Shown: positions 8,002-30,771 of the stretch, piece after piece
Layout: each line of letters starts with the position of its first letter
Position numbering within the stretch: position 1 is the first letter of the stretch
From: Prorocentrum cordatum
Lineage: Eukaryota
Direction: 5' to 3'
DNA length: 64,000 bases
Assembly (NCBI GenBank): GCA_963575745.1
Contig: CAUYUJ010000192.1
Span: forward strand, 248,001-312,000
The notes under the pieces: generated by a model
Told to the model about the DNA's origin: nothing
Seen by the model: only the letters and a program-made list of their open reading frames with translations
Database searches by the model: none
Made by a program: the position numbers and the translations under genes

Positions 8002-8002
<1 letters not shown>

Positions 8003-8811
8003 CCGCCGACCCCTTGGGGATCATCGGCGTGTGAGATGCTTCCCCCTCCCCAAACCCCTCCCCCGGGAGCCCGGTCCGGTCGATTTGGAGGGGGGGGGGG
8101 GGGTCGAGCGCGAGCGGGGGGGGTCCGGGACGAGCGGTTCACGGGGCTTTTCCGAGCCCAAGAGGGCCTCAAGACGGGCCAAGAAGCCCCCAAGAGGCCT
8201 CCAAGACGGCGCACGAAGGCTCCGAGACGCCAAACGACCGGTCCAAGACGCCCACGATGGCCCCAAGACGGGCCAAGAGGTCTCCAAGACGGCCTCCGAG
8301 GTCCCAAACAAGCCTCCCAAGAGGACCCCAAGAGTCTAAAATTGTTGATCTTCCATAGTGTTTTTCTATGTTTTTTGCTTTTCCGCCTTTTCGGCTTCCC
8401 GACGCTCCAAGACGGCCAAAGAGGCCCCCAAGAAAGCCCCAAGATGGCCCAAGAGGCCCCCAAGACGGCCTCCAGACGGCCCAAGACGGCCCCAACACGG
8501 CCCAAGAGGTCCCCATGACGGCCCAAGAGGGCTCCAAGACGGCACCAAGAGGGGCCCAAGAGGGCGACCAAACATGTTGAAACTCTAGCTTTCTGCCCCC
8601 AGGAGCCCCAGGGGGCCCAAGAGTGCCCCAAGAGGCCCCCAGAGGCCCTCACGAGGCCGCCCAGACGCCCCAAGGAACCCCCAAGAAGCACCCCAGAGGC
8701 TCCGAAACGGCCCCCAAGTGGCTCCAAAACTCGCTTTTCACCCCTTCGCAGCATCTACTACCCCCAGATTGGCATAAACAAGGGGTCGGCGGTGTGGCGT
8801 AAGCCTAAGAA
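8002..8811 (+). mobile_element. Non-autonomous rolling-circle element, family A copy 1
   Basis: Starts TCCGCCGACCCCTTG. Exact 14-bp inverted copy CAAGGGGTCGGCGG at 8779-8792, then hairpin GGC-GTAA-GCC (8796-8805) and TAAGAA. CCCAAGA-rich interior. Confidence 0.8.
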
Positions 8812-9961
8812 TCCACGTCCGGAGGTGACGTGCTGAGCGGTAGCGTTTTTCGGCGAACGCCTTAATGCAACGTATCCCATGTGTCCAATGATTGCACAAT
8901 CGATACATATTGTGTTTTGTTACAGTATTATGTCTCCCCCCCTAACCCCCCCCTGGAGTCGCGCCACAGCGCCGTACCAAAAGTTGGCCCCCCTCATTCT
9001 GGACCCCAAACCTACAAAAACCTACGTAAAATCAACAATTTCGGCCTTTTCGGCCTCTATTGCACAATTGATACATATTGTGTTTTGTTACATTATTATG
9101 TCTCCCCCCCTAACCCCCCCCTGGAGTCGCGCCACAGCGCCGTACCAAAAGTTGGCCCCCCTCATTCTGGACCCCAAACCTACAAAAACCGATGTAAAAT
9201 CAACAATTTCGGCCTCTTCGGCCTCTTGGGACTCCAAGAAGGCGTCAAGGGGGTTCCAGGATGGCCCCATGACGGCCCAAGACGGCCCAATACGGCCCCA
9301 AGACGGCCCCAGATGGTCCCAAGAGGGCCCGTCAGGCCCCCAAGACGGCCCAAGAGGGCCCCAAAATGATCCCAAAGGGCGCCTCCATGAGCCAAAATCA
9401 TAAATTTCCCAATGGCTTTTTAATAATTTTCGCGTTCTCGCCCTTGCCGGCTCTCAGAGGACCATGACGGCCCAACCAGCCTCCAAGGAGACCCCCAGAC
9501 GGCCCAAGAGGCCCCCATGGAGGTTCCAAGATGGCCCAAGGGGGCCCGACACGGCCAAAAGAGGCCCCCATGACGGGCCAAGGGGTCTCCAAGACGGGCG
9601 AAGGAGACTCCCAAAGAGCCCCAAGGCGGCCGCGAGAGGCCTCCAAGATGGCCTCCGAAGGGGCTGGGCGGCGCAAGAGCGCCCCAAGACGGCGCAAGAC
9701 GCAAGAAGAAGCCCCGAGAGGCCCCAAGGCGGCCCCAAAGATGCCCCAAGAGGATCCCTGGAGGCTTCCACGAAGCTCCCATGAGCCCTTCCAGGACACC
9801 GCCTCAAGCCCCGGGGATGGCAGGCCGGAGCGGCACACGCGCGCGGAGGCCGAGCATGTCACGCCATGTAACGCCAACATTTTCCACAGTTCTCCACGGC
9901 GGCGATGACCAGTTCGGATCGGATGCGCGGCGCCTACTCTGCCCGCCTGCAAGCGCGGCGC

Positions 9962-12900
9962 CTACTCTGCCCGCCAGCAAGCGGGGCAGAGCATGTCTGC
10001 TTTGTCGCGCTGGGAACTCTTCACGGCTGCTCGCATAAACACTGCCGAGCACTGGGCGCATTTCAGCCCCCCGCGCGGATCCCGGCACTGAGCGCAGGTC
10101 CACTCTTTCAAGTTCCACACTCTGTACTTGGCCGTCTTCGGCCGCGGAGTCGTGCCACATCTCGCGCACGGCGGGAATTTGCAAGACTCGCACCAAAACC
10201 CGGTGCTGTACGTCAAGCGGTCTGGAGGCCTTGCTCCGCAGCCTCCCTGACAGAGGGGCTTCCCTTTTTCGTCGAGACATTCTGTGCACGCGGCGTCTTT
10301 GACGCTCTTGTGCATCTGAAAAAAGGCTGCATCAAACTGATCCGCTGCCTTCTCCTGCGAGCAGATGCGGCACTTAAAAAGGCGGCCCTCCGACATAATG
10401 TTGAAATGCTGCCTCTCAGGGGGTGCAAGCGACGCAAACGGCAAGGTCCAGCGCCCCTCTTCCCGTCAAGTCATTGACCTCGCTGCGTCTGAAGTTCTTT
10501 AACGATTTAGTCTCCTTGCAGCGATTGCAGACGAGCACGTCTCTGCCTTTCGCGGCGAATGGCTCTGCAGCCGCGGCGGGCGCGCCCGCAGCAGAGGTCC
10601 GCTTCTGCGCGCACAGGGCGCACCTCCTCCACGCGCCCTGGCACAGCAACGCCACGGCGTGCTCTACGGGGTCGCTCGTTCTCATGCCGCTGCCTGGGAA
10701 GTTGCCCGCTCTCTTCCGCTGGTGGCAGTCGGCGCACTGGAAAGTGACGTCCACCAATTTCTTGGACGACCTGGACGCGGCTTCCTTCTCTGCCTTGGCC
10801 CAGCCGGCTTCCGCCTGCTCCGTCGTCATCTCCCCGGCTGTCAGGGAGTGCAAGAGCCATGGGCCCGTCTGATGCCCCTGGCGGAAAAGCATGGGCGAAA
10901 AAGGCTGCGTGATGATCAGATCGTCAGCCCTCCTGGTGCGGCTGATGGCCACGTAGCCCGTGGGGACCATGGCTGCGCGGGGCGTCGTGCGCGCGTCCAG
11001 GAGGTCGATAATGGCCTGCGGCAGCGTGGCGCCGGTGACGCAGTGGGCCGTGGCGGCGACGTGCGGGACCAGCGGGAACCCCGCGCGCTTCACCATGGCC
11101 TTGAAAAACAAAACAAAAAAAACTAGAAAGAAAAAAAAAAAAAAAACGAGAAAAAGACCCAAAACCAAAACAAAAACAACACACCCTCGCACCACCGCCA
11201 CCCCTCCCCACACCCCCACCCTCCCCCCCCACCCACCCGCCCACCTCTCCCCCCCCCCCCTCCCGCCCATCGCCTGCCATCTAACCCAGTACACCTCCCT
11301 CTGCAACCCTTGGACGCCCCCCTCGTTGCAGTCCATAACCCCAAGCGGGCCCGTGTCCCCGGAAATTGCAACCAAGATCGCCTCGGGCACGGTGCTTCAG
11401 TACCAGCACCCGCCCGGCACGGACCAGTTGTCTATATCACCAACTACGATCGTCGGTTGGAGACCCAGCCGACACGAGTACCTCAGGAGGGGCTTGCAGG
11501 CTCCCGCCTCCGCATTCTCCGTGGTGGTGAACCGCGCCCGCATCCCCTCGAAGATCGGCAGCACACCCGGAACTCTGCCAGTCTTGTTCTCGGGGTACAT
11601 GAGCCAGTTCTGCCTGGCGTGGGAGAGCGACTCCGTCGACCTGCATGCGTCGTCCCGAGTGAGGGGGACTTCGCGCGCCACCACCCAGAGGAGCTGCTTC
11701 CCAGCATTGGCTGCCGCATTCGCCGCTCGCAGCGTCAGAATCCTGCTCTTCGGGGCGTTGTACGGGTGCACGAACAGCGCGTCCGCGAACGCCGTGCTCA
11801 CCTCCCGCTGTCTGGCATCGCTCTGAGAGGCGACGCGGCAGCGCCGATGGCGTTCCGCGCTGCACTCAGCGCACTCCAGGGATTTCATGTCCTCCCAGGC
11901 CCGACCTTCTCCGAACATCCGTGGCCACTCAACTGACCAGAGCGCGCGGCACTTCGCCTTCCCGCAGCCGAAGTGCCCCGTCGAGGCCTCGGCGCTGCCG
12001 GGGCTTGCGGGCATCCAGGAGCCGGGCACATCAGTGGGGAAGCCGTGGACGAAATCGTACATCCTGTCCGACAGATTCCCAGCGCGCGCTTCGGCGAGAA
12101 AGCTTCTCCACCACACGTCTGAGCAGCGGTGCGACTGGGCCAGGGCGTAGCGGTTAGTCACCGAGTGCGGCAAGCCCTCTGTCCAGAACATCTCCAGTAT
12201 GCGGCCAACGTTGGCGGGTCTCTTGACAAATGGGTTGGCGGCAATACTGAGACTCCTGACGGGCGGTATCTGCCATAAGTCCCCGAGCAGCACCAGGTTG
12301 AGCCCTCCGAACATGGCGAACTGTTTTGGAACGCGTGCGTCCACGGCCCAGGGGTTTCCCTTGTCCCTCGTCGAGTCCTTCACCTGCCTGTGCACGGCGC
12401 CCAGCAACTCCACCGAAACGTTCTCCACCTCGTCGATGATGAGCCAGCGCATGTGCTGGATTTTCGTGTGCAGCATGTTCTCCGACAACTCCGGGTCCTT
12501 CTTCCCGCCGGACGCCGGACTGGACTCCCGTGATGAGGTCGATTCCGAGCTTGCTGAAGTTGTGGATGGTTCGCCCACCGATGTTGCTCGCCATGGAATT
12601 CATGGGGGCGGTCTTGATGAAGTGCACCTCGTGTTCCCATCCCATGCACGTGGGGAACAGCCCCACGCCCTCCTCGCACAGCCACCGGATGACCTCCGAT
12701 TTCCCTGAACCCGGCAGGCCGAGAACGAACAGCCGGGAGCATGGCGATCCGCGCAGCTGGTCCTGCTCGCGGGCCTCCTGGACGCACCTGTCGGCGACGG
12801 CGTCCAGGATGCTCATCTGCTGCGGGTCGGTGGTGATCTGGTGCGTCTGCAGTCCTGCGATCGGGCAGGGATGCGCATGGCCTTGCCTCCCTTCACACTA

Positions 12901-15900
12901 CCCACCTTACCGACGACTGCTGCACAACCCTGTCTGCTACACATCACACGTGCCGCGCCACCTGCCTGGCATGCCCAGACGTGTATACATCTGGGAAGTC
13001 CATGTTTATACATACACACACTATACGCGCGTGCACATGTAGACGCGTACGCGCACCTTCCACAGAGCACGCATGGCGCGACCGAGGCAATGCAAGCAAA
13101 CGCAGCGCCATCCTTTTAAGTGTATACACGAAGCCTCGCTTGTAATCAACCTTCCCCATACTTGGATCTACTCACCACTTACGACATGACGTTCTGGAGT
13201 ATACATGATGTGTACACATTCTGCACATGCTCTGTACAAACTCTGTTCGATACACGCCAGCTCAAACGCCGAGGTTTCCATCCTCGATATCTTCTTCCAG
13301 AGCGAGACGAATCGGGCGCCCCCGACCGAACTGCATCCAGATCGTGCTTTTGCCCACTGCACGTCTCGAGATTGCCCCCCCCCGGTCCTCTCCGCCAGCT
13401 CTGGATGTTGCTTGTCAGGTCAGCGTCGCCAGGGTACAGCTTCTCCCGCATCTTGGAGCGCGCAATCTTCCGCGGTGGCTCCTGGGCATTCCCGCGAGCC
13501 CCCGCTGGCATTGCACTGGAATGCCGAAGAGCAGACTGTCGCAGTGGCAAGTTCAACGTGGGCGCCCTGTTCGGCGGGTCCCAGAAGGACATGCTCTGCT
13601 CCAGCGCTTTGTGCACCGAATGGGAGAGGTTCCCAATGTCCTCGCCAGCGGCATCTGCCCCGGCGTCTCGGTCTACTCGCCGTAACTCTGCCATGATGCT
13701 GCTGGGACTGAGGACCGGAAACGCGTTCTCGGGTAGCGCCTCCACCGGCTTCGAGTCCTGGTCGTCCTCGCCCACGTCGGCGTTCTCCGGCATCGTCGTC
13801 ATGGTGCGGAGCACGTTCGCCCACAGGATGCGGTTGGACGGCGAGACGATGTGGCCGCGAAGGTAGCGCTTGAGGGCTACTCGGAAGCTCGGCGCGCTCC
13901 TCCCACAGCGCTGGCGCTTGGGCGGCAAGTTCAGATTCTTCGCTAGCGGAACAGGCCCCCGAGAAGATCCGCACTTGCACACCAATGTCCATGGTCGGAA
14001 GTACGCAATACAAAAATGCGCTGCGAGCGGCAGCGTCATTTCGCTGAGGCCTGATGGGCTCATGAAAGACGGGTAGCGCGGGGACGCCCCGGGGTACAAT
14101 CACGTACATGTGCGCAAACTCCATGTCGTCTGTATCTTCTTCGAGCGCAAAGTACCTGCATTCCTCCGTGGGTGGCTTCACGACATTGCGGACCCCAGAC
14201 CGTGGAGGCCCATCAGCCGCGGCCGGCGGCGAATTCGCCCTCCACTCCGTCGGGCCCGTCGATGGCTTCGAAGCATCTCTTGGTGGCGGGTACGTTGGTA
14301 CCACCTCGTACAAGCGGACGAACTCGCACGGGCTCAAAGCGGCATGATTGGGTCGGTAGGCGTACGCTCGCGCCGTCGCGTCCGGCGGAGTGGCCACCTC
14401 GCCTGCGTCCGTGAACACCACGGACCTCTTCTGGCGCCGCGCCGTCGCGCGCCCTACCCGAGTCTCGTCCGTCACGATCTGGAGGAAGCAGCCCGCGTAG
14501 AAGTCGGTGACAGGGCACGACGTGATGCACTCCGCTGCGAGCGGATTTGGCTTGTCCGCGAAGTGCGCCAAGTTCACCTCCTCGAAGATCGTCCGCGCCA
14601 CGCCCTTGGCCTCCCAGTCCCCGACGCAGCGGTGAACAGGGTTGATCGTCTGCTGCATCTCGGACTTCCCTTGGAGTCGCTCGGCCAGCGTGGACAGGCA
14701 GGTCTTCACCAGTTCCCGCGCCTTCTTCCCGACGCGCTGCACCTTGGAAATGTACCCGCCGATGTACCGCGAGGAGTTCGACATGGACCGCTGCACCGCG
14801 AATGCGATGCGTCGAAGGTGCCCTTCTTCTGTGTCTTCTCTGGAGCCGTGTCGACACAGGCAGTTCGGGTCGTGAGTAATGCCTGTGATCAGCGGGAGCC
14901 GGTTGTTCGGCGCCGTGTGCGTGTTGCTCCGAAATGCCACCGCCAATGCTGGACAAGTCCCGCTCAGGAAGTCGTCGTTCCGAGGCCCCGCGATCTCGCC
15001 CAACGCACTCCTCGGCCCGTTCACTTTAAGCCCGACTTCCCTGGCCACCTGAGGGCACACAACGCGGAATCTCGGTCCATCTGGGGCCGCCATGAGCATG
15101 GTCTTCGGGAAGCCGTGCTTGCACTTGTCGCCGTGTTTGCAGCCTTTCTTGATGCAGTGTGTGAGCGGCTTCCCGTTGGGATGGTGGTGATGCTGGACCT
15201 TCGAGAAGATCATCTGCGCATCTGCCTCGTAAGCCTGCTTGAAGGTGGCCGCGTCGGCGTCGCAGGCAACGGCATCGCACCCCTCGTCCCACTTCGTCTT
15301 CGGCTCGGCATGGTCCACATACGCGGGCCACCGACACAGACCTACGTGCTCCGATGCGCGGTGATTCTGCCGCCACTCAGACTCCAGCGACGGTAGGCTC
15401 TCCCGGTGCTCCTCGGGGGCCCAGTGCTCTTCCCTGTGGACCCACGCGTGCCACTCCTTAACCGCGTCCGCCAAGCCAGGGGACTCCCGAATTGTCCTCG
15501 CGATCTCAGTCAAGGGTGCGTGCTGGAACATGTTCGCGAGGTACACGAACCCGTGGAAGTGGAGCGTGCCTAGGTGCTGGTTCTCGACGGCGCCAAGCAA
15601 AGCTGCAGCAACCCCGAAAATCCCGCCCATGGGGCGCGAATTGGAGCCGAACTTGTCCGTGCAACAGCACCGGGGCTGCCTACGATATCTTCGCGCGACG
15701 CCGCACTCGGCGCACAACCGCAGACCCAGGAGGCGGCCCAAGATCACGTTCACGGCGACGCGGAAGCCCTGAACGACCGAGAGAGGATCATTGGCCACTT
15801 CGCACAGACGCAAATCGAAATCGGGGAGCTCCGCGTCGGCGCTCTCCGACAATGACGGCCACTCCCGTGACGCCAATCGTTTCCTCATGGCATTCCGTGC

Positions 15901-16780
15901 GTCGTCTGTGCACCCCGCGCGCAGCGGCGGGTCGCCCTGGCGTGCTCTGTGTAGACGCATCACCAAGCAGGACTGCTTCTGATTTGGCGAGATGGTGATG
16001 AAAAGCCCGTGCCCGTATCCAACCGCGCCAGACTGGAATACGTGGCCCATCCTGCGACGCAGCTCCTGGGTGCCTGCAAGGCTGCTCGTCACAGAGCGCA
16101 TGTTGTGCACGATCTGTTTCTGGGTTGTGTCCAGGCCATGCGCCATGTGCAGCACCGTCAAGTTGCCAGCAATTGGCCGCCTGTTCGGCCCGTAGTACCC
16201 CTTCGCCAACAGGTCGTGCAACCCGCGGACAGCCGCGGTCAGGCGCTCCGTGAAAGCGGATCCGTCTTCGTCCTTGTACTTCCTGACTTTGCTCCCCAAC
16301 CTCGCGGTGATGCCCAAAAAGCGGAAGTGGACATTGCGCATGCCTGGGATGAAGAGCCAGTCCGATCGGATATGGTGTTCCACTCGGCGACTCATGCCTG
16401 CAAGCCACATCCCCATGCTGATGGACGGCCGGTTTTGCACTTCCTCGGGCCGCCCCACCGCGCGCGCCGATCCGCTTCTCGGCAAAACCGTTGCGCCAAA
16501 TACCTCGTGAAGTCTGCCCCCCGCTCCTGCCACAGCGATCGTGTGCGGGAAAAGCGATCGCGGGTACTTCCCGCCACTGCTCCAACATGGGCCGCGCGGC
16601 GACGTAACGGACGACTGGCCCGCCCGTTCCATGCTCTCTGTTGCTTGGTGGGGGGGGGAAAAAACAAGCCACTGACTCCCGCGTCCCCTTGCCGGACTCG
16701 CATCTGGGGCGCGCAGGCGGTCGACTGGCATCGCGTCGAAAACCAAGCGACTCATGCTGTCCATCGCCCGCCTCGCGTGC

Positions 16781-16823
<43 letters not shown>

Positions 16824-19800
16824 TGCACACTGCTCCTGGACGGATCCGCCACCACCGTCGCCCGGTCCACGGCTGGCGGGACCTTCCCGTCGGTGTCCTG
16901 GGGGGTGCCGAGCCACGGGTAGCACTGCTTCACGCGCCTTTCAAACGCCTCCTTGGCAGCGGCGATTGCGATGGGATTGCCAGCAGCATCTCTACAAAAA
17001 GCGGGGTGGCCGCGGTCGATGAGCTCCCAGCCGAGCTGCAGCACCACATGAGCGCGGAGGCGCATGCGCTTCAGATGCTTCGACATGTCCTTGTCTTTCA
17101 TCCGGAACTCGAAGCGAACCAAGTGGGCCAGCGTCTCGCCGTCGTGGGGCAGCGCCGCAGCAGCACTGGAACTCTCCGTGATGGCGAGCAGGCGCTCCAG
17201 GACGTCGTCCCAATGCACCAGGAAGCTGGCCAGATTACCGCGGACAGCGTACCGACTGTGCGGATGCATGGCCTCTGGGGTTCGCCGTGCGAGCAGCGCG
17301 CCACTACCCCCCGTGCACCACTCGGCCACACTGCAGTTTCCAGGGGGGGCGGGGTCCGCAAAGAACAGAGAAGGGGCAGTGCCGCGCTACTTCGCGCAGC
17401 TCGCCTGATTGTTCATGAGGTGGCCCTTATCGCCCTCGACGTAGAACGCCATCAAACTCGTCCACACTGGCGTGGCCGCGGCCATCTCGATCCACCGGGG
17501 CTTGTGCTTCTCCCACCATGCCGACACGAACCCGACAAAATTGTCGTTGGCGATGGCGGGACGCGGGATTCGCTCCCGCACCGTTCGCGTCTTCGCGAAA
17601 ATGCCGCGGCACTGCCAGCACAGAGGTACGCGGCACGACTCGCACAGCTCATCAACAACTCCATGCTGACGGTCGCACACCACGTCTTCCGGGCAGCACA
17701 GGAAGCGCATGGAGTTCTGGCTTCCGTTCGGACCATTCCACCGCACCGTTCGCACCCACGGCGAAGACGCGGTTGTCTGCGTCGGATAGCGGTGCGACCG
17801 CGTCCCGCGGTGGTCCGGAGCAGGGTGCGGGAAGTGCGCCAGGAACGCGTCCAAGCCGAAGGCGTACTCCAGGAGCTCACGCGGACAACTGCGCAAGAGC
17901 CCGCGCAGTGGCGTCCATCCAATCTCACTGACTCCAGCGGACTCGGGGTCCTCGACACTCGTGTAGATCTGACCGCAGCAGAAGCACACACAGCGACCCG
18001 ACAAACAACACCGTTCGCCACTTGCCCTCATGTGCGAAAATATGCCCCCTCTCTTCAAATATGCCCCGAGAGCTGCATGCCCGTGCGCGCCCACCTCCAC
18101 CGCCTGGGCAGTAAATATGACCAGAATCCAGCTATCCTGCTCCTCCAATCACCTCGGCATGGACGCCGACATCGTCGGCGCTGTCAGCGAGTCTCTTGTT
18201 CCACCCCTGCCTCCACGCTGCTGGGAGGCAGGCCTGGTGGCAGCTGATTACGTGGCGCCGCAAATCCCCTTCCGTCTCCCCGGTCCTGCGGCACTGCCGA
18301 ACGGCGCAGTTGCAGATCGGCCACTGCAATCCGTCCATTACCTCCTGGATGTTGTCTGCGGCGTCCGACGGGTCGAACGGCGGAGGAAGCGTCGGGTCCT
18401 GCCGGAGAAATGCAGGGAAAGCCCGAGCTGCTTCGTGGGCGACGTCCAGCGTCGTGTGCGCCACGTCGGCGCCGCAGGCCAAGTGGTCAACGTCGGACTG
18501 CTCTGACCCGGCAGGGGCCTCCGACAGCTCGGAATTGGAGTCCGACGCCGGCTCTGAGGGCGATGACTCCCGGTCGGCGTCGGAGTCAGACTCGGGGGCC
18601 TCCGCGGCTGCAGCGGCATGCTCTTCGCGTTCGCCCTGCGGTCGGAGACGCCTTAGCGCGCGCGCAGCCGCGCCCCGTCGGCGGCCTTCGGGCGCGCGTT
18701 GCAGCCGAACTCCGCGCCCGCCGCACTCCCTCTCATTGAAACGCAAGCGCCCGGGGCCCCGGCTCAGGATGCGGCCCGGCGGAGAAAAGGCGCCCCGATC
18801 GGGCGGCGCCAGTCGGAAGAGTCTGCCCGCGCCGACTTCATGCGCGAAAGCGCGTAGGCCGGGTCAGGATGCGGCGGCGGCGGCGGAGGTGCAGCGTGGC
18901 GCGGTCTCCACTCCAGAGGGTCGGCGAGAAAACGTAAGAACCTATGAAGAAAGCCGCCACGTCCTTCCTCGCCGAATAGCGCATCCCACGTCATCGAAAC
19001 ACCGAACGGGTCGCTGAACCTTCCCCCGCACGCGCAAGTCGCTCTCCCAACGTCGCGGAGCGTTCGTGGCCAGACGTCGCCACTTCCCACCGCATCGTAG
19101 TGTGAAGACCCGTCGACGTCATAGTGGACAAAAGCAAAATCGAGCACTGGGATTTGCGCACGTCCCTGCAGCAACCCCTGGTCCGGGAAGATGGCCGCCT
19201 GGCTCCACGCGTTGAATGGCACGTACAGAGCGAGAGCGCCACAAGCCTCCAGGAAGTGCGTGATCACAACAGCGTCTGCATATCGGCGCGTTGCCGACAC
19301 GTCCTCCGAATGGAGGCCCATGCATATGTCCACGTAGAACACCTGCAGTGGGCGGGGGCAAGAGATAACGCGGGGGTCACTGCGACTCCGCCATTGAAAG
19401 CCAGACCAGTCCCCCAAAAAATTCCTTCGCCCGAGTGAACGCATAAGCGCGGCCCCAGACGCCCTCTCGGCAACGCCCCGACGGCCCCGCCCTCAGAGTT
19501 CGAAAGCATCGCGTGCCTCCTGTGCAAGCACTATTTGGGAAATGTGCTCCTGGATCTCCGGGCTCCGCGAAGGGCACCCCTTCCTCCCCGTGCCCGCGGC
19601 GCCACCTTCCAGTTGGGGAGACTGCCCCACGCGACGCCACTGGCCACCTGCGCTGGCAACTCCTTCTGCAGGCGGGCCCTCCTCTCCACGGCGTACTCGT
19701 CCAGCTGCAGCGCCGCGAACAATTGCTGGTTCCGCTGCTTCATCATCTTCACCAGCGTCCATCTGTACAGCTTCCAAGCCGCGCGGCCTGGAAGTCCCAG

Positions 19801-20025
19801 TTCGGCAGCCGCAGCGCGGAAAAAGCACAGCCCGTCTCCACGAACAGGGCGCACGGACAGCCGCATCCCTGGCCGCGTCGCCGAGAGCAGATCAGCCACG
19901 CGACCCAGCGACTCGTTGGCGCAACTAATGCGGGACCGCCTGATGGCCTCCCCGTCATCGTCGAGCCCAACCTCGCTCACGCGCGCCTGGTCGACTGCGA
20001 TCTCCTCGTCGCTCGACTCCGCCAT
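9962..20025 (-). CDS. Multi-exon RepHel transposase, frameshifted in this assembly
   Basis: Rep motifs GLFITISPN (~15983-16009), ENQHLGTLHFH (~15550-15585), YIGGYISK (~14743-14766). Pif1 motifs GLPGSGKS (~12697-12720), LIIDEV, FGGLNLVLLGDLWQIPPV, QSHR, ATAHCVTGATL, YVAISRTR. N-terminal OTU domain; C-terminal CxxC repeats. Confidence 0.93.
16830..18400 (-). CDS. C2H2-like finger, Cys-rich region and DUF6570-like region of RepHel (intron 17273-17404)
   Basis: CAVRQC..LRRHVISCH; CESCRVPLCWQC; PAIANDNFVG..WIE; AVRGNL; LRAHVVLQLGWELIDRGHPAF. Confidence 0.7.
19000..20025 (-). CDS. OTU-like cysteine protease exons of RepHel (intron 19343-19647)
   Basis: VRGDGLCFFRA in exon 1 and HYDAV in exon 2. 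CAG|GTG at both intron ends, phase 0. Confidence 0.8.
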
Positions 20026-21342
20026 GGCGCGCCAGAAGCGTCGCCGCCCCGCGGGCCAACTGGGCAGCCCTGACTGCGGCAAGACTGGACCCCGGAGCCG
20101 CTATCGAGCCCACATGGTTTACAGATGCCGCGCGCGCTGAGATGGGCCATTGTGGGACGCACGGCTAATGGGCGAATTCCGATGCGACCTCAGGTTGCGC
20201 GGCGCTCGGCGCATGCTCCGGGGTTGCTTTCAAAATGGTCTTGCATTGAAGCGTGATTTTCGGAAGGGCGCTCGCAGACGCCACGCAGCCCCCTGGGGCT
20301 CCACGATCCCGGAAGTCTAAAAGGACCTGGGGTTCACAGAGACAGAATGGATCACAACCTCCGATGCCCCAGCGAACGTGCTGCCCGCCCACAGGGGTCG
20401 GATCAAAAGGCCTCGAAGGTGCAGCCAGGAAGCAGAATCACAGAGCCCGAGATCGGCTTGGCCATCGCTCCCCGGTGTATCTCCCGCGGTCACTGCGGGT
20501 TCGCATTGAAGTTTAAACGCGACCTCAGGTTGCGGGACAGACAACGCAGAAGTTTTCCCCATCAGTGAAAGAAGACGAAGGTGGGTGCATATCATGAAGT
20601 GACAGTTATCGTGTGGACTCGTGCGCGCGGCGAGTGAATGAAGACGATGGTGGTTGCCGGAGATGTGATGCCGATGGTGGTGTTTGTCCGTCTGGATGGT
20701 GCTGAATGATGGCAGGTAAGATGATACATCGAGGCTATGATGAAGGAGGTTTCTTCAAAATCGACAGACCTACTGGAAACTTCAGAAAGATAGGGAGGAG
20801 TTTTGGCAACACGCTGACTACAAGCCTAACCAGCTTTGGGTAATGCTGCTTTCGCTTTATTGTGCTCGAAAAAGGTCAAAGCTAATGTACATGCAGCACC
20901 GTGCGAGCAGCTGCGGATCGAAAGTCCCGATAATCATGGGAGCGCGCTGCATGGCCGACGGGGAGAGCTGGAAAATGTTACTACCTGAGCGCTGGACTAC
21001 CTGAGCGCTGGAACGAGTCATGCGGGTTCACCCCTCAGTGTCAAGAGATGTGCAAGCACGACGAGGCGTTGGTCAAGAGGCCTGGTCAAAACTGCCGCTG
21101 AGAAGGCAAAGCTGGTTCTAGCCGAGTCTGTGGCTCGGCAGTCGTGGCGCTGAGAGGGCAAGGCTGGTTGTAGCCGAATATACTCGGGGGTTGCCAGGGG
21201 TGCCCCCGGCCCAATGCGCTTCTGGCTTCTCGTGCCATTTTAGAGCCCCCAGGGCCCTCTGACCCCCGCGAGGAGCGCTCTGGAGGCCGCGGGGGCCCCC
21301 GCGGTACTTCTGGGGCACCTTGGGCCAAGGACACCTTGAGCA

Positions 21343-22674
21343 TCAATCCGATAAAGCGCCGGCCAGCCAGCGCTCGGAGCGGCCTGCTTCCCTCGCGCCC
21401 TGGCGCGCCCGGGCGCGGCAAACCGCGGCGAGCATCGAGTGAGGGCGCTCACTGCTCAGCGTACTCCATGGCTCCAGGGCGCGCAGGAGGTCGCCCGTGG
21501 GGGGGCTGTCGCGCACGAGCACAAGCAGAACCTCCAGGCCGTCGAGCAAGGGCTCCAGCCCGTCGAGCTTCGCCTTGTCGTCCGCCAGCATGGCCGCCTG
21601 CGCATCTGCCTGCAATGATTCGAGGAAGCGATCAAGCTTCGCCACGATCTTCGCAACGGCCGCCTCCGGCGACATGTCCCTCGCCGCCGCCGCGGCTGCC
21701 ATGTCCCCCTCGAAGATCGTCAGGCGCTGCGCCCACTCGAGCCTTCGAACGGGGGTTGCATTTCCCGAAGCAACGCGCCCTCTGCGCCGCCGCATCGGGA
21801 GCGGTGCGCGGGGATCGGGAAGACCGCGACATGAACGCGATAATCATAGCCGCGCTTGCCTTCCCGAGGCGGAAACGCTCGGGCGCCCCCCCCGAAAATG
21901 CAACCCTCGCGCGGCAACCTGTCGGCCGGGAAAGCCGCCGCCGGCCAGCGAGACACGGTGCCCGCGAGCGCCTCCGCGCCGACCCCCGGCATCTCCACGA
22001 AACGCTTGACCGCGGCAGCGATGTCCAGCTGAATGCCCTTGAACGCACGGTATTTCGCCCTCTCCGCAGACTGCGCTGCGCTCCGCGCTTCCCCCGCTGC
22101 GAACGCCGTCGCCGCCTCGAGGTACGCGCCCACCGTCACCTCCGCCGCGGCGGCGGTCGGCGCCGGGACGGCGTGGGCCAGCGGCGCGGCCGCGGGCGCC
22201 GGCGCCTGCGCAACCCCGGCGACGCCCGCAGGCGGAGCCACCGCCGGGACCGCCAAGGCTCCGCCGCTGGCCATTGAAGCGGCACCGACCGCCGGGGCGC
22301 CCGCGGGCGCACGCGCCGGCGGCACGGCATCCGCGCCCGCGCCAACCGCCGCCAACGTCATCGCCCTCGACGCGGCAACGCCGCCCGCCGTCGCCACCTG
22401 GACGCTGCTGGCGGCGCGCTTCACTTCCCGTATCGCCGCCGCGGCCTCTGACCGCCGCGCCAGCGCCAACCGCCTCCACCCCCGCCGTCGGCGATTCAGC
22501 GACGCCGCCCGCCATCGACATCTGGAAAACGCCGGCGGCGGTTGTCTCTGTCGCCATCTCTGCCTGCGCCCCGCGCTGCCCCGCATCCACGGACAGCGTG
22601 ACCGCGGCGAAAAAAAAAAACAAAATAAAAAAAAAAAAAAAAAAATAAAAAAAAAAAAAAAAAAAAAAAAAAAA

Positions 22675-22707
<33 letters not shown>

Positions 22708-23660
22708 GAATCAAAAAAAAAAAAAGGTGGCTCCCGCGATGAGTTTGTCACGCGCGCCTTCACCGCGAGCAGCTGGCAGGAAGTCCCCTTCCGCCCGGGG
22801 GGCAGCCGTGAGAACGGACCGGGAACCGCTCCCACCGCGCTAGCGCCAATAGAGCTCCAGCCGGACGACGGACGGTTACCCAGCAACCCAGATTCGAGGA
22901 GCCCTCGACGTAACTTGTCGGCGACCAGTCCCACTGGGCGAATCTGCACGGAATGCCACGACGTCCACCTGGTATGGTTCGTGGAATTCGTGTTCTCCCG
23001 GAACAGCAGCTTCGACGCTCCGCCCTGGTGCGAGAACCCTCCTGGGCGGCCAACGGCATTTACGCCCATGGCCTCGCCGATCAGTTGGCGCAGCTCGGCG
23101 CGGAACTCCTCGAAGGTCTGCGTGTACATCCCGAAGCACCACGCACCTGGGGCATTCGCAATGCCGCCCTCTGCCGTTTCCTGGACGACAGCAGTCGGGT
23201 TGTCCTGGTGCGACGGGCTCATGTACTCGGCCACGACGTTCTGCGGCAACCCAGCATTGAATGCTGTGGCCCACTCGGGGACGTTGGCCGCATTCTTGGA
23301 AATCAAGCCGGACATCCAACGAACTGCGTTCTTGGACTCCTTCCTGCAGACAAGCTCGTCCGCATCCGCGAGCACTCCGACGATGCCGCCATCAAATGCC
23401 AGGCCCTTTGCCTGCACACTGACGTCGAAGAATACCTCCAGCACCATGGCCTGGACCTTCGAGTTCGCGTCCATCTCGCGGGCCTTCAGCGGGGAGCCAC
23501 CGGCCGACTGGAGGAACGAGGTCATGCTGAGGAAGTCAACGCGAGTTCGCTTGCCTGAGAGAACACCTTGGTCCGAAGTGGCTGCGGGACTTCCACCTTG
23601 CCTTCTCTTTCAGATGGACAGCCTTCATCTGCAGGGCTCTTGGCGTCCACGACGGCCCCA
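21343..23660 (-). CDS. Accessory/cargo gene inside the Helitron, distal part (frameshifted, function unknown)
   Basis: Globular-looking sequence at 22730-23525, an Ala/Pro linker, then a helical C-terminus (KIVAKLDRFLESLQADAQAAML..) ending at 21343. Interrupted by a poly-A block. Confidence 0.55.
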
Positions 23661-24422
23661 TATGCCTCCACAGTGACAGTAGGACGCCCAGAAGAGGCTC
23701 CCAATAATGCCTCCGCAGACCCAAAAGTGACCCGGCAGGCCTGCAAAATGGCGCAGCTCGCCCACGCGCATGAAAAGATATCCCCAGAATGCCTCCGAAT
23801 AAAATCAAATGATATAGCAGCGGTGCTGCGAAGACAGGAACGAATCCCACAGACGGGCCAAAGTAGCCCCAAGAGGCCCCAAGAAGGCCCCACAGATCCT
23901 CCCACGAACCCGCGAAAATGGCGAGCGGCCCCAAAGAGCCCCCGATGGGAAAGACGAACTGGCATTTTGAACCTTTCCCCCCAAGATGGCCCCCAAGAAA
24001 AAGAAAAGCCTCCCGCGGGCTCCCTGAAAAGACCCCAAAAGGCTCCAAGATGGCCTCGCGATGAGGCCCCCCAAAGCGCCCCAAGACAGCCCAAGGTGAC
24101 CCCAATAAGGTCGGCTGAAGAGGCTCCCAAAATGGCCTCAAGATCAGAGGCCCCCAAGAGTGCCCCAAGACAGCCCAAGGTGCCCCCAACAAGGTCGGGG
24201 ACGGCCAGCGCGACAACGAGTATGGACCAGGATGGACATCAAGACGGCCGACACGGCCTTCAACGTGAAGGCTGAGTGACTCTGAATGTGAGTGAGTCTG
24301 AATGTGAATGTGTCTTCGCGTGTGAGTCTGAATATGACTGAGCACACTGTTACTGTATCTGGGTGTGAGCGGCATGCGGAAGACTCAGTCAGGGAATCAG
24401 AGAATCTGAGTTGGAGTCTGAA

Positions 24423-24940
24423 TGGGCTGTAGGGCTATAGGGCTATAGGGCTCTAGAGCTATGCGGCTATAGGGCTATAGAGCTATGCGGCTATAGGGCT
24501 ATAGGGCTATACGGCTCTAGGGCTCAAGGGCAAAAGGGATATAAGGCTATAGGGCTATAGGGCTATAGGCCTATAGAACTATAGGGCTACAGGGATATAG
24601 GGCTATGGAGCTATACGGGTATGGGGATATAGATGTGAAGGAATATCGGACTACATTGCTATATGGGCTATTGGGCTATTGGGCTACAGGACTATAGGGC
24701 TAAAGGGTTATAGGGCTATAGGGCTATAGGGCTATACGGCTATAGGGCTATAAGTCTATAGCGCTATAGTGCTCTAGGGCTCTAGGGCTATAGGGCTATA
24801 AGGCTGTAGGGCTATAGGGCCATGTAGGCTATAGGGCTTTAGAGCTATGGGGCTATAGGGCTATAGAGCTATAAAGCTATAGGGCTCTAGGGCTCTAGGA
24901 ATATAGGGCTATAGGGCTACAGGGCTATAGGGCTATAGGG
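24423..24940 (+). repeat. (GGGCTATA)n minisatellite
   Basis: Direct reading. Confidence 0.95.
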
Positions 24941-25614
24941 CCTCCGAATGCCCCCAGAAAGCTCCAAAGATGCTCCAGGAGTGCAAAGTCGATCAGGGCC
25001 CCCGCTGGTGGCCCCGCAGGGTGACACCCATTCGGGAGCAGAGCCTCCCTCCTCCGGCTCTCCCCTTCCAATACGAAAGCGTCTGAGACTTCCGCGCTCT
25101 TGAGGTTCGTGAGAAACCGTCTTCAAGGCTTCCCCATTGTCGGACCCTCCCCTACGTCCGAACCGCTCCCATACTGCTTAAAACCTCACTCTTATCCGAA
25201 AACGTCTTGGCGCGATCTTGGAGGCTCTTCGGGCCGTCGTGGAGCGTCCGAGACACGAAACAGCGAGAAGCACACGACCACGACCTCTGACGGTGCGCTT
25301 TGACCAGAGTTCCGAAGTGAATCCAGCCGTGACGCCGAGGGTCCCCCAGGCGAAAACGAGGAAACGTAATCGGCATCGGTGTGTTTTCCTCCTCTGAGGG
25401 CAGGCAAGCCGTCCCTGCCAATGCCGAAAATGTGCGCTGCCTGGATTTGCCAGGTTACGCTGGATGGCTGCCCTTAATGTCGTCATGACTCTGGTGCGCT
25501 GCCCGGATCTGCCGGGTCACGCCGGATGCAGCGAGTCAAGCGAGAGACGGCTGGGAGTTCTGGTAGCAAGTAATAAAGCGAGAGGACCTCGAGGAGCACG
25601 TCCGGAGCACGTCC

Positions 25615-26220
25615 GGGGCCTCCCTGGAGGGGTACGAAACAATTTAAATAGTATGGTTTTCGGATACCCTCCTCGCTCAGGCAGGGCCTCCGTGGAGGTG
25701 TGGGAGGGGCACGAAACCATGTACATAGTATGGTATTCCGATACCCCCCTAGCTCAGGCGGGGCCTCCCTGGAGGTGTGGGAGGGGCACGAAACCATGTA
25801 AATAGTATGATTTTCGGATACCCTCCTCGCTCAGGCGGGGCCTCCCTGGAGGGGTGGGAGGGGCACGAAACCATGTAAATAGTATGGTATTCCGATGCCC
25901 TCCTCGCTCAGGCGGGGCCTCCCTGGAGGTGTGGGAGGGGCACGAAACCATGTAAATAGTATGGTTTTCGGTATGGAGTGGTCTGGAATGGTATGGTAGG
26001 TATGGTATGGTACGGTATGGTATGATATGGTATGGTATGGTACTGGAGGTATGGTATGGTATGGTACGGTGTGGCATTGGTGTGATATGGTATGGTATGC
26101 TATGGTACGCCATGGTATGGTATGGTACGGTATGGTACGTATGGTGTGGTATGGTATGGTATGGTATGGTATGGTATGTGTGGTAGGAACTCTGGTATGG
26201 TATGGTGTGTGGTATGGTAG
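25615..26220 (+). repeat. ~77-bp tandem repeat (about 4.5 units) followed by (TATGG)n
   Basis: GAAACCATGTA recurs at ~25713, 25790, 25867 and 25944. Confidence 0.9.
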
Positions 26221-26509
26221 GTTATTGTGTTGCATGGAAGATGGAGCGGGTGGTGGGTGGTAAGGAGAGGGTGTTCTGGGAAAACAAGAACCCCACTCAG
26301 GATGTGGGGGGCAAAAAAAGACCAGGGCCGAGCAAGCTCAAGCCAAGTGGTAGGGCGGAGGCGAGGCAAGTCCTTCGCGGCACCGTCCCCCTCCCTCTCC
26401 TCTTCCCCCTCCCACTCCCCTCTTCTTCCTCCTCCTCCTCCTCCTCCTCCCCTCCTCCCCCTCCTCCCCCCACGCCTCTCCTTCCATTCCCTCCTAGCGG
26501 CGCCGCACC

Positions 26510-27560
26510 TGCACCCGCTTAATAACGCACTCCGCTAAGAAAACGTAGGCGCCGATAGGCGCTAATGGACGCTCTGCACTCTTAGTTGCCCACTGCCCGT
26601 CTGCCGTCCCAGAACCCAGCCGCGTCCTGTCGCACTGAGTGAACTGCAACAACCCGGTCCCACTTTGGGAGCGCCCTCGCATCATCATCAAGGCTCCTGG
26701 TGAGAGGCCTGGCCCTGACGAGCGGGAGCCCGCATCCAGGGTGTCAGGGAAATCGTCCCCCTCCAAGTTGTAGATGACCGTGGTGAAGCGCTGACGCGGC
26801 TTGCCCTCCTGAGGTACCGGGGATCGCGTGATGGCCACGAGGCCCTGGCGGACGCGGTCCCTATCGATGGTTCCGCCCCCGGGCACCTCCCCGCGAATGC
26901 GCCGCGGCGCACGGACGAGGTCAACGGCGATCATATCCCTCGTGCAGAGACCCTCCTTACAGGGCGCCCGCCTGAAATCCTCACACCGCAACAAACCCTG
27001 GGCAGGAGGTCCGTCGCGCGAGCCGCGAACTCCGTCGCGAAGGTCGGCAACGCGGCGTCGGACACGAAAGCCGACCACGCATCCCAGAGCCGCGTCGCCA
27101 CGTCCTCGGCGAAGTTCAGCGAGACCGCCATGGGCAACGCTAGGTGCCCGTTAGGGGTCGCCTGGCGGATTGCCACAAAGCGGCAAAACTCCGTCTCCAG
27201 GAAAGTCAAGAACACGCTCAAGAAACGAACCCAGACGCCCTCAAACCCACCTCGCAGCTCCCCAGGGGCTGGCGCGGCCAGCGGCCGCGGCACGACGCCC
27301 TCCGCGCTGCGCAACTCGGCCGAGGCTGTCGCGGCCGACGGCGGCGACGCGACGGCTGCCGCTGCCAACGGCCGAAGAGGAGGAGGACGCGCTTGCGCCC
27401 TCGCAAGGTGCGCCGCCGCCTGGGCCACGAAGGGCCTCGGGCTGCGGCTCCGCGCCGTGGTGGGCGCAGCAGGAGGCGCCGGCGCTGGAGACCATGGCGC
27501 CGGAGGGTCGTTGGAGGCTGCTGCGCGGTCGCGTTTCTGTTTGCGCGCCCGGGCGCCCAT
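26510..27560 (-). CDS. Probable first exon of the Helitron accessory gene (one frameshift)
   Basis: ATG at 27560 (MGARARKQKR). Overlapping ORFs 26931..27749 and 26494..27078 give protein-like sequence ending at a CAG|GTG donor near 26510. Confidence 0.5.
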
Positions 27561-28060
27561 CTGTGGAGCAGAGGGCACGGAGGACGCGAGGCCCGAAAGA
27601 GGAAAGCTCCAGCGAGCGCAGAGTGGACTTGGGCCAACATGGGCAGCGGAGGAGCGACACGTCTGTAAGGAAAACAGACCCTTTGAAAAGGGAAGCTTCC
27701 GACTCCTGCATTCTCCCTTGTGCGTCTCGGAGGGTACGTGCCGGAGCACGACCCACGGGAGCAGCGCGCCTCGTCTCCTTCCTCCGTGCGTCCCAGAGGG
27801 TACGTGCGTCCCAGAGATGGTTGATTACCCTCCGCGGTCGCCACCCTCAATTGCGACCGCGAAGGGTAAGCAGCCATCTCTTCCCAGAACGTGTGAAACT
27901 AGTTTGAAACCACGGTGTGCGCCTCATGGATGAAACTCCTCCCTGGCTCTGAAACTCCTGGTCCGAACTTTGCGCGGGAGGCGCGCACTACAAAGCCACT
28001 TCAACTTCAACCGCGTACGAAACGTCCCTTCTAAGAACACGTCCAAGCTCCCTCCTGCCC

Positions 28061-28224
28061 TGGCGGCGCTCACAGGGAATGGCGCGAGAGGGGCCTGGCT
28101 TGTAAGAAAGCGATGGCTTCTTTGAAGGCGGGGGCCCTCTGAGAAGGTTTCTCAGAGCCGCGGGGGCTTCGAAAAAAAACCCGCCGCCTCCGTAGAACCC
28201 AGTCCCTCTCACGCCACGCCGCCA
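28061..28224. mobile_element. MITE related to the 55572-55774 element
   Basis: Ends TGGCGGCG / CGCCGCCA with an imperfect inner inverted repeat; flanks CCTGCCC / TCTGCCC. Confidence 0.55.
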
Positions 28225-29342: not shown

Positions 29343-29520
29343 TATTCGGGGATGGACATACCCCCCTGTAGTAAAACGTGGTGTAGCGAAAACGATCTGA
29401 GGCCCAAACCTGGCGGGCGCAAGCCTGGAAAATGACGGCCACGGCGCCATCTCGAGAACCGAAGACGGAAAATCCACGAGTCGACGTGCCACTGTTGGGG
29501 ATTCTGTCCACCCTCGAAGT
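29343..29520. mobile_element. MITE, second copy at ~58128-58313
   Basis: ATTCGGGGATGGACA / TCTGTCCACCC ends; identical core GAGGCCCAAACCTGGCGGGCGCAAGCCTGGAAAAT. Confidence 0.75.
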
Positions 29521-29856
29521 ATTCCTCCTGTAGATGGACAAGCCCGACTCTGCCCTGGACCGCCCCTCCTCGCGCGTCGGGCCCCCGCCGTGCGCGGCCA
29601 CCTCCTCGTCCTCGCGCCGCCGCCCTGGGAAAAATTGACGCCTCTCCGACGAAAGCCGCGGTGCGCGACGCGCGGCTCTCTTCGCGCCCGCGGAGGCGAC
29701 CCGATCCGAGGATCCCCTGCCCGAAGAGGAGGAGGAGCAGGAGGAGGAGGAGGAGGAGGAGGACGGGCGTCCAAATCTGGGGGTCCACATTGCGAAACTA
29801 ATTCCAAGGAGGAGGAGGAGGAGGAGGAGGAGGAGGAGGAGGAGGAGGAGGAGGAC

Positions 29857-30510: not shown

Positions 30511-30771
30511 CGCAGTTACTCACAGCTCGAAGCTCCCTCCACCTCCGCCTCCCGCGAAAGCGCGAATCCGTGACGTGACCAGCCCTCCTCTTCCCCCCCT
30601 TATGGGGTCACGCCTTGCCAGAGTGGAACCAAAAAGTGATTCCGATAACCCCCCAAGCTTCCCCAATCGGCCCCCAAGAGGTCCTCCGGAAGCTTCCCAA
30701 AAAACTCCCAAGGCGTCCAAAACGCCCGTACTCTCCGCAGTCCGGACGTGCACCCCGCGAAGCGAGAGGAA

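What the first reader, a model, noticed from the sequence alone, without database searches (positions are those of the whole stretch)
8779..8823. Two rolling-circle families joined at the same base, twice (A|B at 8811/8812 and 62787/62788), plus B|B at 30771/30772
Seen: AAGAA|TCCACGTCC at both A|B junctions although the interiors differ (A 0.8 vs 1.8 kb; B 22 vs 0.9 kb), and GAGGAA|TCCACGTCC at B|B, with no spacer or TSD. Inference: either B targets the hairpin terminus of existing elements, or A+B moves as a composite by terminator read-through. Either way this would be a way of building head-to-tail element chains.
Basis: partly seen in the sequence, partly recalled or inferred. Interest (0 to 1): 0.8.

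Follow-up and report, generated by a model that had tools for sequence, protein, structure and literature searches.

The report
Head-to-tail chains of dinoflagellate Helitron2 transposons
Two related families of rolling-circle jumping genes in a dinoflagellate genome sit end to start with not one base between them, an arrangement already known from Helitrons of bats, maize and fungi but unusually consistent here.

Summary
Three junctions have no spacer: 8811/8812 and 62787/62788 (A|B) and 30771/30772 (B|B).

A and B are two related families of Helitron2-type rolling-circle transposons. Each has its own matching pair of asymmetric terminal inverted repeats, a 5' hairpin, and a small 3' hairpin followed by a tail ending in GAA.

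B1 (8812-30771) carries a Rep/helicase gene on the opposite strand. B2 is an internal-deletion derivative of a B1-like copy. A1, A2 and B3 are non-coding. Best protein matches are to Prorocentrum cordatum.

The window holds two chains, host-A1-B1-B2-host and host-A2-B3-host, with no target-site duplication. All 3 of 3 B 5' ends in the window abut another element's 3' end, whereas 2 of 3 B 3' ends abut ordinary DNA. Five metagenome contigs show the same join: 4 are B|B and 1 has a third A variant joined to B. That sample favours multi-copy junctions.

One recent segmental duplication is excluded. My best reading (about 0.4) is that incoming B copies are joined to the 3' terminus of resident elements. 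Moving a chain as a composite by terminator bypass, and rolling-circle concatemers, remain open.

Head-to-tail Helitrons, including unlike pairs, are already in print, so this is a new member of a known kind. Interest is moderate.

The parts
8002..8811 (+). A1, a non-coding Helitron2-type element (810 bp) with internal 10-11 bp CCAAGACGGCC repeats
   Evidence: The 5' homology with A2 starts at TCCGCCGACC. The 3' motif is found. The repeats are found.
8003..8015 (+). A1 5' inverted repeat (CCGCCGACCCCTT), 1 nt from the 5' end and inside a predicted 5' hairpin
   Evidence: It is a perfect 13-nt reverse complement of 8780-8792, read. The fold is (-7.8 kcal/mol, z -1.7).
8780..8792 (+). A1 3' subterminal inverted repeat (AAGGGGTCGGCGG), 19 nt from the 3' end
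8796..8811 (+). A1 3' mini-hairpin GGC-GTAA-GCC plus the tail TAAGAA; the last base of A1 is 8811
   Evidence: Read from the sequence. The energy model does not single this hairpin out.
8812..30771 (+). B1, a 21,960-bp putatively autonomous Helitron2-type element
   Evidence: It has matching B ends in the right order, with no other B end between them. Its 5' 2.3 kb and last 150 nt match B2 at 98-99% and 147 of 151.
8812..8832 (+). B1 5' inverted repeat TCCACGTCCGGA (8812-8823) within a 5' hairpin with 6-bp stems at 8814-8819 and 8827-8832
   Evidence: The fold is. The stem is kept in B1, B2, B3 and the 5 metagenome copies while the loop varies.
9977..17269 (-). Rep/helicase gene of B1 on the opposite strand, in several frames (introns or frameshifts)
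   Evidence: Pfam finds Helitron_like_N and PIF1. tblastn with Prorocentrum cordatum relatives covers the gene. HUH (LHFHG), YIGGYISK and Walker A GLPGSGKS are present.
30741..30771 (+). B1 3' end: inverted repeat TCCGGACGTGCA (30741-30752), mini-hairpin CGC-GAA-GCG (30756-30764) and tail AGAGGAA
   Evidence: The hairpin appears in the centroid fold of the 70-nt junction.
30772..33868 (+). B2, a 3.1-kb internal-deletion derivative of a B1-like element
31965..33482 (-). Helicase C-terminal remnant kept in B2
   Evidence: tblastn.
60989..62787 (+). A2, a non-coding A-family element of about 1.8 kb; its 5' end is ambiguous between 60989 and 60994
62788..63665 (+). B3, an 878-bp non-coding B-family element, 72-80% like B1

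Best explanation
What it is. A and B are two related families of Helitron2-type (HLE2) rolling-circle transposons in a dinoflagellate genome of, or near, Prorocentrum cordatum. Each element reads 5'-TCC[inverted repeat within a hairpin] ... [matching inverted repeat]-[3-bp-stem mini-hairpin]-[6-7 nt tail ending in GAA]-3'. B1 is the protein-coding form, with its Rep/helicase on the opposite strand. B2, B3, A1 and A2 are non-autonomous.

How the joins arise (inferred, not shown). The junctions are exact joins of one element's 3' terminus to the next element's 5' terminus. I propose that the Rep/helicase cuts just after the GAA tail next to the 3' hairpin of a resident element, as it must do when it ends a round of transposition. 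The freed 3'-OH is then joined to the 5'-TCC of an incoming B strand.

What follows from that. Every inserted B brings a new ...GGAA 3' end, so it recreates the target and the chain can grow. A elements land in ordinary DNA and seed chains. Homotypic B|B joins may also come from rolling-circle concatemers.
For: Shown here:
- End architecture and its match to the published Helitron2 description.
- A and B have unrelated inverted-repeat sequences, yet each pair is self-complementary: 13 of 13 for A1 and 11 of 12 for B1.
- The Rep/helicase has its catalytic motifs.
- 3 of 3 B 5' ends in the window abut an A or B 3' end, while 2 of 3 B 3' ends and 2 of 2 A 5' ends abut unrelated DNA. That asymmetry is what tail-targeting by B predicts.
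- Three different A tails (CTAAGAA, CCAAGAA, CTGGAGAA) are joined to the same first base of B.
- In the metagenome scan, 58 loci matched the pattern and 5 were true B 5' ends. All 5 are preceded by an element 3' end: 4 B-type and 1 A-type.
- The first 122 nt of B are 100% identical between the A|B contig and three of the B|B contigs, and 99% with the fourth. One B subfamily therefore has two kinds of upstream partner.
- The four B|B contigs are 92-96% alike, so they are not one locus.

From the literature (passages read): two unlike maize Helitrons joined CTAG|TC were attributed to consecutive insertions (PMC2267711).
Against: - Only 3 junctions come from an unbiased source, the window.
- Short-read metagenome contigs assemble multi-copy arrangements preferentially. 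A B 5' end next to single-copy host DNA would rarely be assembled, so the 5 of 5 is biased.
- That an A-type|B junction assembled at all hints that it is multi-copy. This fits composite amplification equally well.
- L051 resembles A2|B3 on both sides of the junction (84-87%). This is the congruence that a composite predicts.
- No empty site and no A 3' end without a B was seen (0 of 3, one of them found through its B).
- The small hairpins are not thermodynamically distinctive (z between +0.4 and -2.8).
- No biochemistry exists for any Helitron2 transposase that I know of (recalled).
Confidence: 0.4

Rival explanations
1. Composite movement by terminator bypass. After one chance or targeted juxtaposition, transposition starts at the 5' end of the upstream element. 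It skips that element's 3' terminator and stops at the next true 3' end, so A+B (or B+B) is copied as one unit with the junction inherited.
For: - End bypass is the accepted capture route for Helitrons (passage in PMC5148889 citing Grabundzija et al.).
- L051 resembles A2|B3 on both sides of the junction.
- 3 of 3 A 3' ends seen carry a B.
- An A-type|B junction assembled from a metagenome, which suggests many copies.
Against: - A and B each keep their own matching inverted-repeat pair. If pairing sets the end point, as Bao and Jurka propose, stopping A's run at B's end is disfavoured.
- The same B subfamily, 100% identical over 122 nt, follows an A in one contig and a B in four.
- A1 and A2 share only their ends, while B1 and B3 are alignable over about 700 bp at 72%.
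- The first juxtaposition still needs another mechanism.
- The chain A1-B1-B2 would be a 25.9-kb unit.
Confidence: 0.25
2. Rolling-circle multimers. Replication of a circular intermediate fails to stop and gives B-B-B concatemers that integrate as arrays. Unlike joins would arise by strand exchange between two cleaved circles.
For: - This is the classical explanation for tandem Helitrons (passages in PMC5876387 and PMC5148889).
- In the metagenome contigs the element upstream and the one downstream of the B|B junction are the same subfamily, with a unit of about 1.2 kb.
- At a B|B junction the two inverted repeats can pair as they would in a circle junction.
Against: - B1 (22 kb) and B2 (3.1 kb) are unequal, and after 30 identical nt their next 90-103 nt match at only 63 of 107 aligned columns.
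- A|B cannot be a concatemer of one circle.
- The four B|B contigs differ by 4-8%.
- No array longer than two units was seen.
Confidence: 0.2
3. Insertion at the 5' end of a resident B. The T that starts B serves as the downstream half of the target, so new A or B copies land immediately upstream of an existing B.
For: - This was offered as an alternative for the maize pair, and for three tandem copies in Metarhizium acridum (passages).
- Both chains share the upstream flank GTA if A2 starts at 60989.
Against: - It needs every B 5' end seen (8 of 8) to have been hit, while 2 of 2 A 5' ends were not.
- It needs two families to share this preference.
- With A2 starting at 60994 the shared GTA disappears.
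Confidence: 0.1

Closest known systems
Helitron2 group of Helitrons (Bao and Jurka 2013, PMC3627910; e.g. [quoted passage not shown]
   Same: - 5' inverted repeat 0-2 bp from the 5' end and inside a 5' hairpin.
- 3' inverted repeat about 20 bp from the 3' end, just upstream of a hairpin.
- 5' terminal T.
- No target-site duplication.
- Rep/helicase without an endonuclease domain.
[quoted passage not shown]
   Different: - The host is a dinoflagellate.
- The 5' flank is A or G rather than T (HLE2 usually insert between T and T).
- The 3' tail ends in RGAA.
- Every B 5' end seen abuts another element.
Helentrons and their non-autonomous HINE/DINE-1 partners (Thomas et al. 2014, PMC4067079)
   Same: Subterminal inverted repeats, a 3' palindrome, and internal short tandem repeats or microsatellites in non-autonomous copies (passages).
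   Different: Pfam finds no AP-endonuclease domain in the C-terminal ORFs. No T-rich target is seen.
Head-to-tail canonical Helitrons of maize (Du et al. 2008, PMC2267711) and bat (Pritham and Feschotte 2007, known to me only as cited there)
   Same: An exact 3'-end|5'-end join without the host target base. The maize pair are two unlike elements, read by the authors as consecutive insertions.
   Different: Those are canonical TC...CTAG elements and single or few cases. Here a Helitron2 family shows the join at all 3 of its 5' ends in the window, with two partner families.
Fusarium and Metarhizium Helitron2-like FoHeli elements (Chellapan et al. 2016, PMC5148889)
   Same: Asymmetric inverted repeats, inverted ORF orientation in some subgroups, joined-end products, and three copies in tandem in Metarhizium acridum. 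The authors explain the tandem either by insertion at a 5' end or by rolling-circle replication.
   Different: FoHeli copies mostly have ordinary flanks and a defined short target (TNAT|A). Tandems are the exception there.
IS91-family bacterial rolling-circle insertion sequences
   Same: HUH transposase, no target-site duplication, one-ended transposition and multimer formation (passages in PMC3627910 and PMC5876387).
   Different: These are prokaryotic and lack a fused helicase. No membership is claimed.

Membership tests
Helitron superfamily | Rep/helicase protein with an HUH motif, a two-tyrosine motif and a PIF1-type helicase | tested here: met
   Pfam Helitron_like_N scores 30.6 bits (cut-off 28.9). 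PIF1 scores 23.7 bits, just under its 25.9 cut-off. LHFHG, YIGGYISK and GLPGSGKS are present. tblastn with a 2001-aa relative spans 17065-9977. The gene is in several frames, so intactness is not shown.
Helitron2 (HLE2) | 5' inverted repeat 0-2 bp from the 5' end | tested here: met
   0 bp in B (8812-8823) and 1 bp in A1 (8003-8015).
Helitron2 (HLE2) | 3' inverted repeat about 20-30 bp from the 3' end, immediately upstream of a hairpin | tested here: met
   19 nt in both A1 and B1, each followed by GGC-GTAA-GCC or CGC-GAA-GCG. The hairpins have only 3-bp stems and are not distinctive by energy.
Helitron2 (HLE2) | 5' hairpin involving the 5' inverted repeat | tested here: met
   A 6-bp stem is predicted in B1, B2 and B3, and a longer one in A1 and A2. 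The stem is kept while the loop varies across 8 B copies.
Helitron2 (HLE2) | Rep/helicase falls in the Helitron2/HLE2 clade | not tested
   No reference HLE1 or HLE2 proteins were on hand. Only Prorocentrum and unnamed metagenome relatives were retrieved.
Helitron2 (HLE2) | Insertion between T and T (usual for HLE2) | tested here: not met
   The 5' flanks are A (or G for A2 under its alternative start). The 3' flanks are T (B2) and G (B3). Published Helitron2 families also deviate from T|T (TTTT|Y, TNAT|A).
Helitron2 (HLE2) | No target-site duplication | tested here: met
   The outer flanks of both chains share no repeat. No empty site was available to confirm this.
Helentron | [quoted passage not shown] | tested here: not met
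   Pfam found no such domain in the minus-strand ORFs 9807-11396. A weak OTU-like hit (E 0.016, below cut-off) lies at 19534-20100.
Canonical Helitron (HLE1) | 5'-TC ... hairpin ... CTRR-3' with no terminal inverted repeats | tested here: not met
   The 5' TC is present, but the 3' ends are ...AAGAA and ...AGGAA, and inverted repeats are present.
Rolling-circle tandem array (concatemer) | Successive units are copies of one element | tested here: inconclusive
   Not met for A|B. B1|B2 are unequal and mosaic. The metagenome B|B junctions join the same subfamily, but no contig spans more than one junction.

The most novel reading that the evidence does not exclude
B may be an obligate 'tail-inserter': a Helitron2 family whose integration site is the 3' terminus (hairpin plus RGAA tail) of resident Helitron2 elements, of its own or of a sister family. 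It would then never enter naive DNA and would build chains seeded by A. This would be natural evidence that the transposase's cut at a 3' terminus supplies the acceptor end for integration, and would make the Helitron2 integration step testable.
Probability: 0.3. Interest if true: 0.65.

Novelty: new member of a known kind. Interest (0 to 1): 0.42.

Why it matters
Helitrons reshape genomes by capturing and copying host DNA, yet how they choose and enter a target is poorly understood, above all for the Helitron2/Helentron branch.

A family whose 5' ends are always fused to another element's 3' end would point to a specific step: the cut 3' terminus acting as acceptor. It would also explain how arrays and satellite-like blocks arise from such elements.

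The finding also documents well-preserved Helitron2 elements with a coding copy in a dinoflagellate. My two literature searches (listings only) showed no paper describing the termini of dinoflagellate Helitrons. The HELIANO main text does not mention dinoflagellates or alveolates; its supplements were not examined and may list such genomes.

If the chains turn out to be composites moved by end bypass, this is an ordinary example of a known process.

Tried and rejected
No result:
- For sequencing runs, none was listed, so no reads could be laid.
- Scans of viral contigs and genome contigs for the B 5' or 3' motifs found 0 loci.
- Earlier-findings look-ups by place and by sequence were empty.

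Abandoned:
- A home-made scan for further inverted-repeat-plus-hairpin candidates on both strands was hopelessly unspecific (7694 and 1955 raw candidates).

Considered and rejected:
- The minus strand as the structural orientation of B, because the Rep/helicase is coded there. The end architecture fits Helitron2 only in the + orientation, and inverted ORFs are documented.
- One recent segmental duplication for the two A|B junctions.
- An assembly artefact, because the same joins occur in 5 independent metagenome contigs.
- The exact TCCACGTCC at 38404 as a fourth B end; it is low-complexity sequence.

Of the 58 metagenome loci, I dropped 53 as chance matches. They show no similarity to B beyond the pattern.

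Full report
**Observation**

The three junctions are as described...GGCGTAAGCCTAAGAA|TCCACGTCC at 8811/8812...GGCGTAAGCCCAAGAA|TCCACGTCC at 62787/62788, and ...CGCGAAGCGAGAGGAA|TCCACGTCC at 30771/30772.

- The A 3' motif (22 nt) occurs twice and the B 3' motif (24 nt) three times in the window. None is expected in shuffles.
- Exact TCCACGTCC occurs four times. Three are B starts; the fourth, at 38404, sits in a CCT run.
- Alignment of the three B 3' ends shows that homology stops exactly after GAGGAA. What follows is TCCACG (next B), TCAAAG or GAAGTA.
- A1 and A2 become alignable at TCCGCCGACC. A2's start is ambiguous by 5 nt.
- A random placement model gives about 5e-13 for three exact abutments.

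The elements on the + strand are:

| Element | Coordinates |
|---|---|
| A1 | 8002-8811 |
| B1 | 8812-30771 |
| B2 | 30772-33868 |
| A2 | 60989 or 60994-62787 |
| B3 | 62788-63665 |

They form two chains, host-A1-B1-B2-host and host-A2-B3-host. Neither has a target-site duplication at its outer flanks.

**What the elements are**

The window is eukaryotic: about 60% G+C and full of low-complexity repeats.

Inside B1, on the minus strand, lies a Rep/helicase gene.
- Pfam finds Helitron_like_N above its cut-off and PIF1 just below it.
- The closest proteins are unnamed Prorocentrum cordatum products at 62-91% identity, plus unnamed metagenome proteins.
- tblastn with these relatives tiles 17269 down to 9977 in several frames.
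- The HUH motif (LHFHG), a YIGGYISK two-tyrosine motif and a Walker A box are present.

B2 keeps only the helicase C-terminus (33482-31965). It is an internal-deletion derivative of a B1-like copy: 98-99% identical over 2.3 kb at the left, and 147 of 151 over the last 150 nt.

A large minus-strand ORF further inside B1 has 95-97% identical multi-copy relatives in P. cordatum, so that part also belongs to repeated DNA.

**End architecture**

- B starts with TCCACGTCCGGA, which is part of a 6-bp-stem hairpin. Near its 3' end it carries the complement TCCGGACGTGCA (11 of 12), then CCC, the mini-hairpin CGC-GAA-GCG and the tail AGAGGAA.
- A starts with T-CCGCCGACCCCTT inside a hairpin. Near its 3' end it carries AAGGGGTCGGCGG (13 of 13), then TGT, GGC-GTAA-GCC and TAAGAA.
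- In both, the 3' repeat ends 19 nt from the terminus.

This is the published Helitron2 layout (passages read in PMC3627910): a 5' repeat 0-2 bp from the end and inside a 5' hairpin, a 3' repeat 20-30 bp from the end and upstream of a hairpin, and a 5' terminal T. The same passage says that some Helitron2 elements carry the Rep/helicase in the opposite orientation. Chellapan et al. report the same for FoHeli4 and FoHeli5.

The two families have unrelated repeat sequences, but each pair matches itself. That is covariation in favour of a working pairing.

Both families hold 10-11 bp CCAAGACGGCC arrays, like the central repeats of Helentron-derived non-autonomous elements.

The small hairpins are not distinctive by folding energy (z from +0.4 to -2.8). 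Their support is conservation of position, and of the B stem across 8 copies while the loop varies.

At a B|B junction the two repeats can pair around the nick site, as they would in a joined-end circle (z -1.2, not significant).

**More copies**

No genome is held for this window and no sequencing run was listed.

One scan of metagenome contigs with the B 5' pattern returned 58 loci. Of these, 53 are chance matches with nothing else in common with B. The other 5 are true B 5' ends.
- Four (L014, L026, L047, L052) are preceded by a B 3' end.
- One (L051) is preceded by a third variant of the A 3' end: ...GGGGTCGGCGGATGTGGCGTAAGCCTGGAGAA|TCCACG.

So 8 of 8 B 5' ends seen are fused to an element 3' end.

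The four B|B contigs are 92-96% alike, so they are different copies. Upstream and downstream units are the same subfamily, with a unit of about 1.2 kb. The first 122 nt of B in L051 are 100% identical to those in L014, L026 and L047, and 99% to L052.

Caveat: short-read metagenome contigs of a low-coverage eukaryote assemble multi-copy arrangements preferentially. These five show that the joins are common. They do not show that free B 5' ends are absent.

One recent segmental duplication is excluded.
- The last 33 nt of A1 and A2 agree at 32 of 33, but the 100 nt before them agree at only 61 of 107 aligned columns.
- The first 90 nt of B1 and B3 agree at 67 of 93.
- The interiors of A1 and A2 are unrelated.

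For repeated joining:
- Three A variants and B itself serve as upstream partner.
- One B subfamily has both kinds of partner.
- In the window B 5' ends are never free (0 of 3), whereas B 3' ends (2 of 3) and A 5' ends (2 of 2) are free.
- Each chain starts with an A.

For composite movement:
- L051 resembles A2|B3 on both sides of the junction (84-87%).
- Every A 3' end seen carries a B (3 of 3, one of them found through its B).
- An A-type|B junction was abundant enough to assemble.

Against composite movement:
- If pairing of matching repeats sets the end point, as Bao and Jurka propose, a run begun at A should not end at B.

Concatemers can account for B|B among like units. They cannot account for A|B or for the unequal, mosaic pair B1|B2: their first 30 nt are identical, and the next 90-103 nt agree at only 63 of 107 aligned columns.

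**Mechanism proposed (inferred)**

The transposase cuts after the GAA tail beside a 3' hairpin. The resident 3'-OH then accepts the 5' end of an incoming B strand. Because B ends in ...GGAA, each insertion recreates the site. I give this about 0.4, composite movement 0.25, concatemers or circle exchange 0.2, and insertion at B's 5' end 0.1. These are not exclusive: a first targeted join could later be amplified by bypass.

**Comparison with what is known**

Exact head-to-tail Helitron joins lacking the host base are known.
- Du et al. described two unlike maize Helitrons joined CTAG|TC and argued for consecutive insertions. They cite bat tandems from Pritham and Feschotte (passages).
- Grabundzija et al. 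2018 list head-to-tail junctions and arrays in plants and bats as support for rolling-circle transposition.
- Chellapan et al. list tandem insertions in bat, Drosophila, rice and maize. They found three Helitron2-like copies in tandem in Metarhizium acridum.
It is an analogy only and was not tested here.

What is new is the host and the consistency of the join, with two partner families. HLE2 elements are said to insert between T and T; that does not hold here.

I file this as a new member of a known kind, with moderate interest. The bolder reading, that B is an obligate tail-inserter, remains open.

Noticed in passing
window 19-2040 (-): A long ORF with two thrombospondin type 1 repeats followed by the start of a von Willebrand A domain (Pfam). 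This is a TRAP/MIC2-like adhesin layout in what looks like a dinoflagellate.
   Followed up: no
window 8812-8931 vs 30772-30904: B1 and B2 are identical for their first 30 nt. The next 90-103 nt agree at only 63 of 107 aligned columns, and then identity returns to 98%. B1's version of that stretch resembles B3 and the metagenome copies. The 5' region is therefore mosaic, which suggests exchange between copies.
   Followed up: partly
window 8891-9226: A 168-bp unit is duplicated in tandem (97% identity) just inside the 5' end of B1. B2 has one good copy and one diverged copy.
   Followed up: no
window 32546-32774: B2 carries about 230 bp of nearly pure G (poly-C on the coding strand) that B1 lacks. 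It lies between helicase residues that are adjacent in relatives.
   Followed up: no
window 11106-11252: An A-rich then C-rich low-complexity block of about 150 bp interrupts the helicase reading frame in B1 but is absent from B2. It may be an intron or a later insertion.
   Followed up: no
window 54446-54652 and 56478-56665: An unexplained 200-bp dispersed repeat (87% identity) that contains short inverted repeats.
   Followed up: no
window 39200-42300: A block of several different tandem arrays, with periods of 10, 16/22 and 73 bp and long ACT/ACG triplet runs.
   Followed up: no
L014, L026, L047, L052, L051: The first 122 nt of the B 5' end are 99-100% identical among five metagenome contigs whose remaining sequence differs by 4-8%. 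This may reflect constraint on the 5' end or consensus assembly of repeats.
   Followed up: partly
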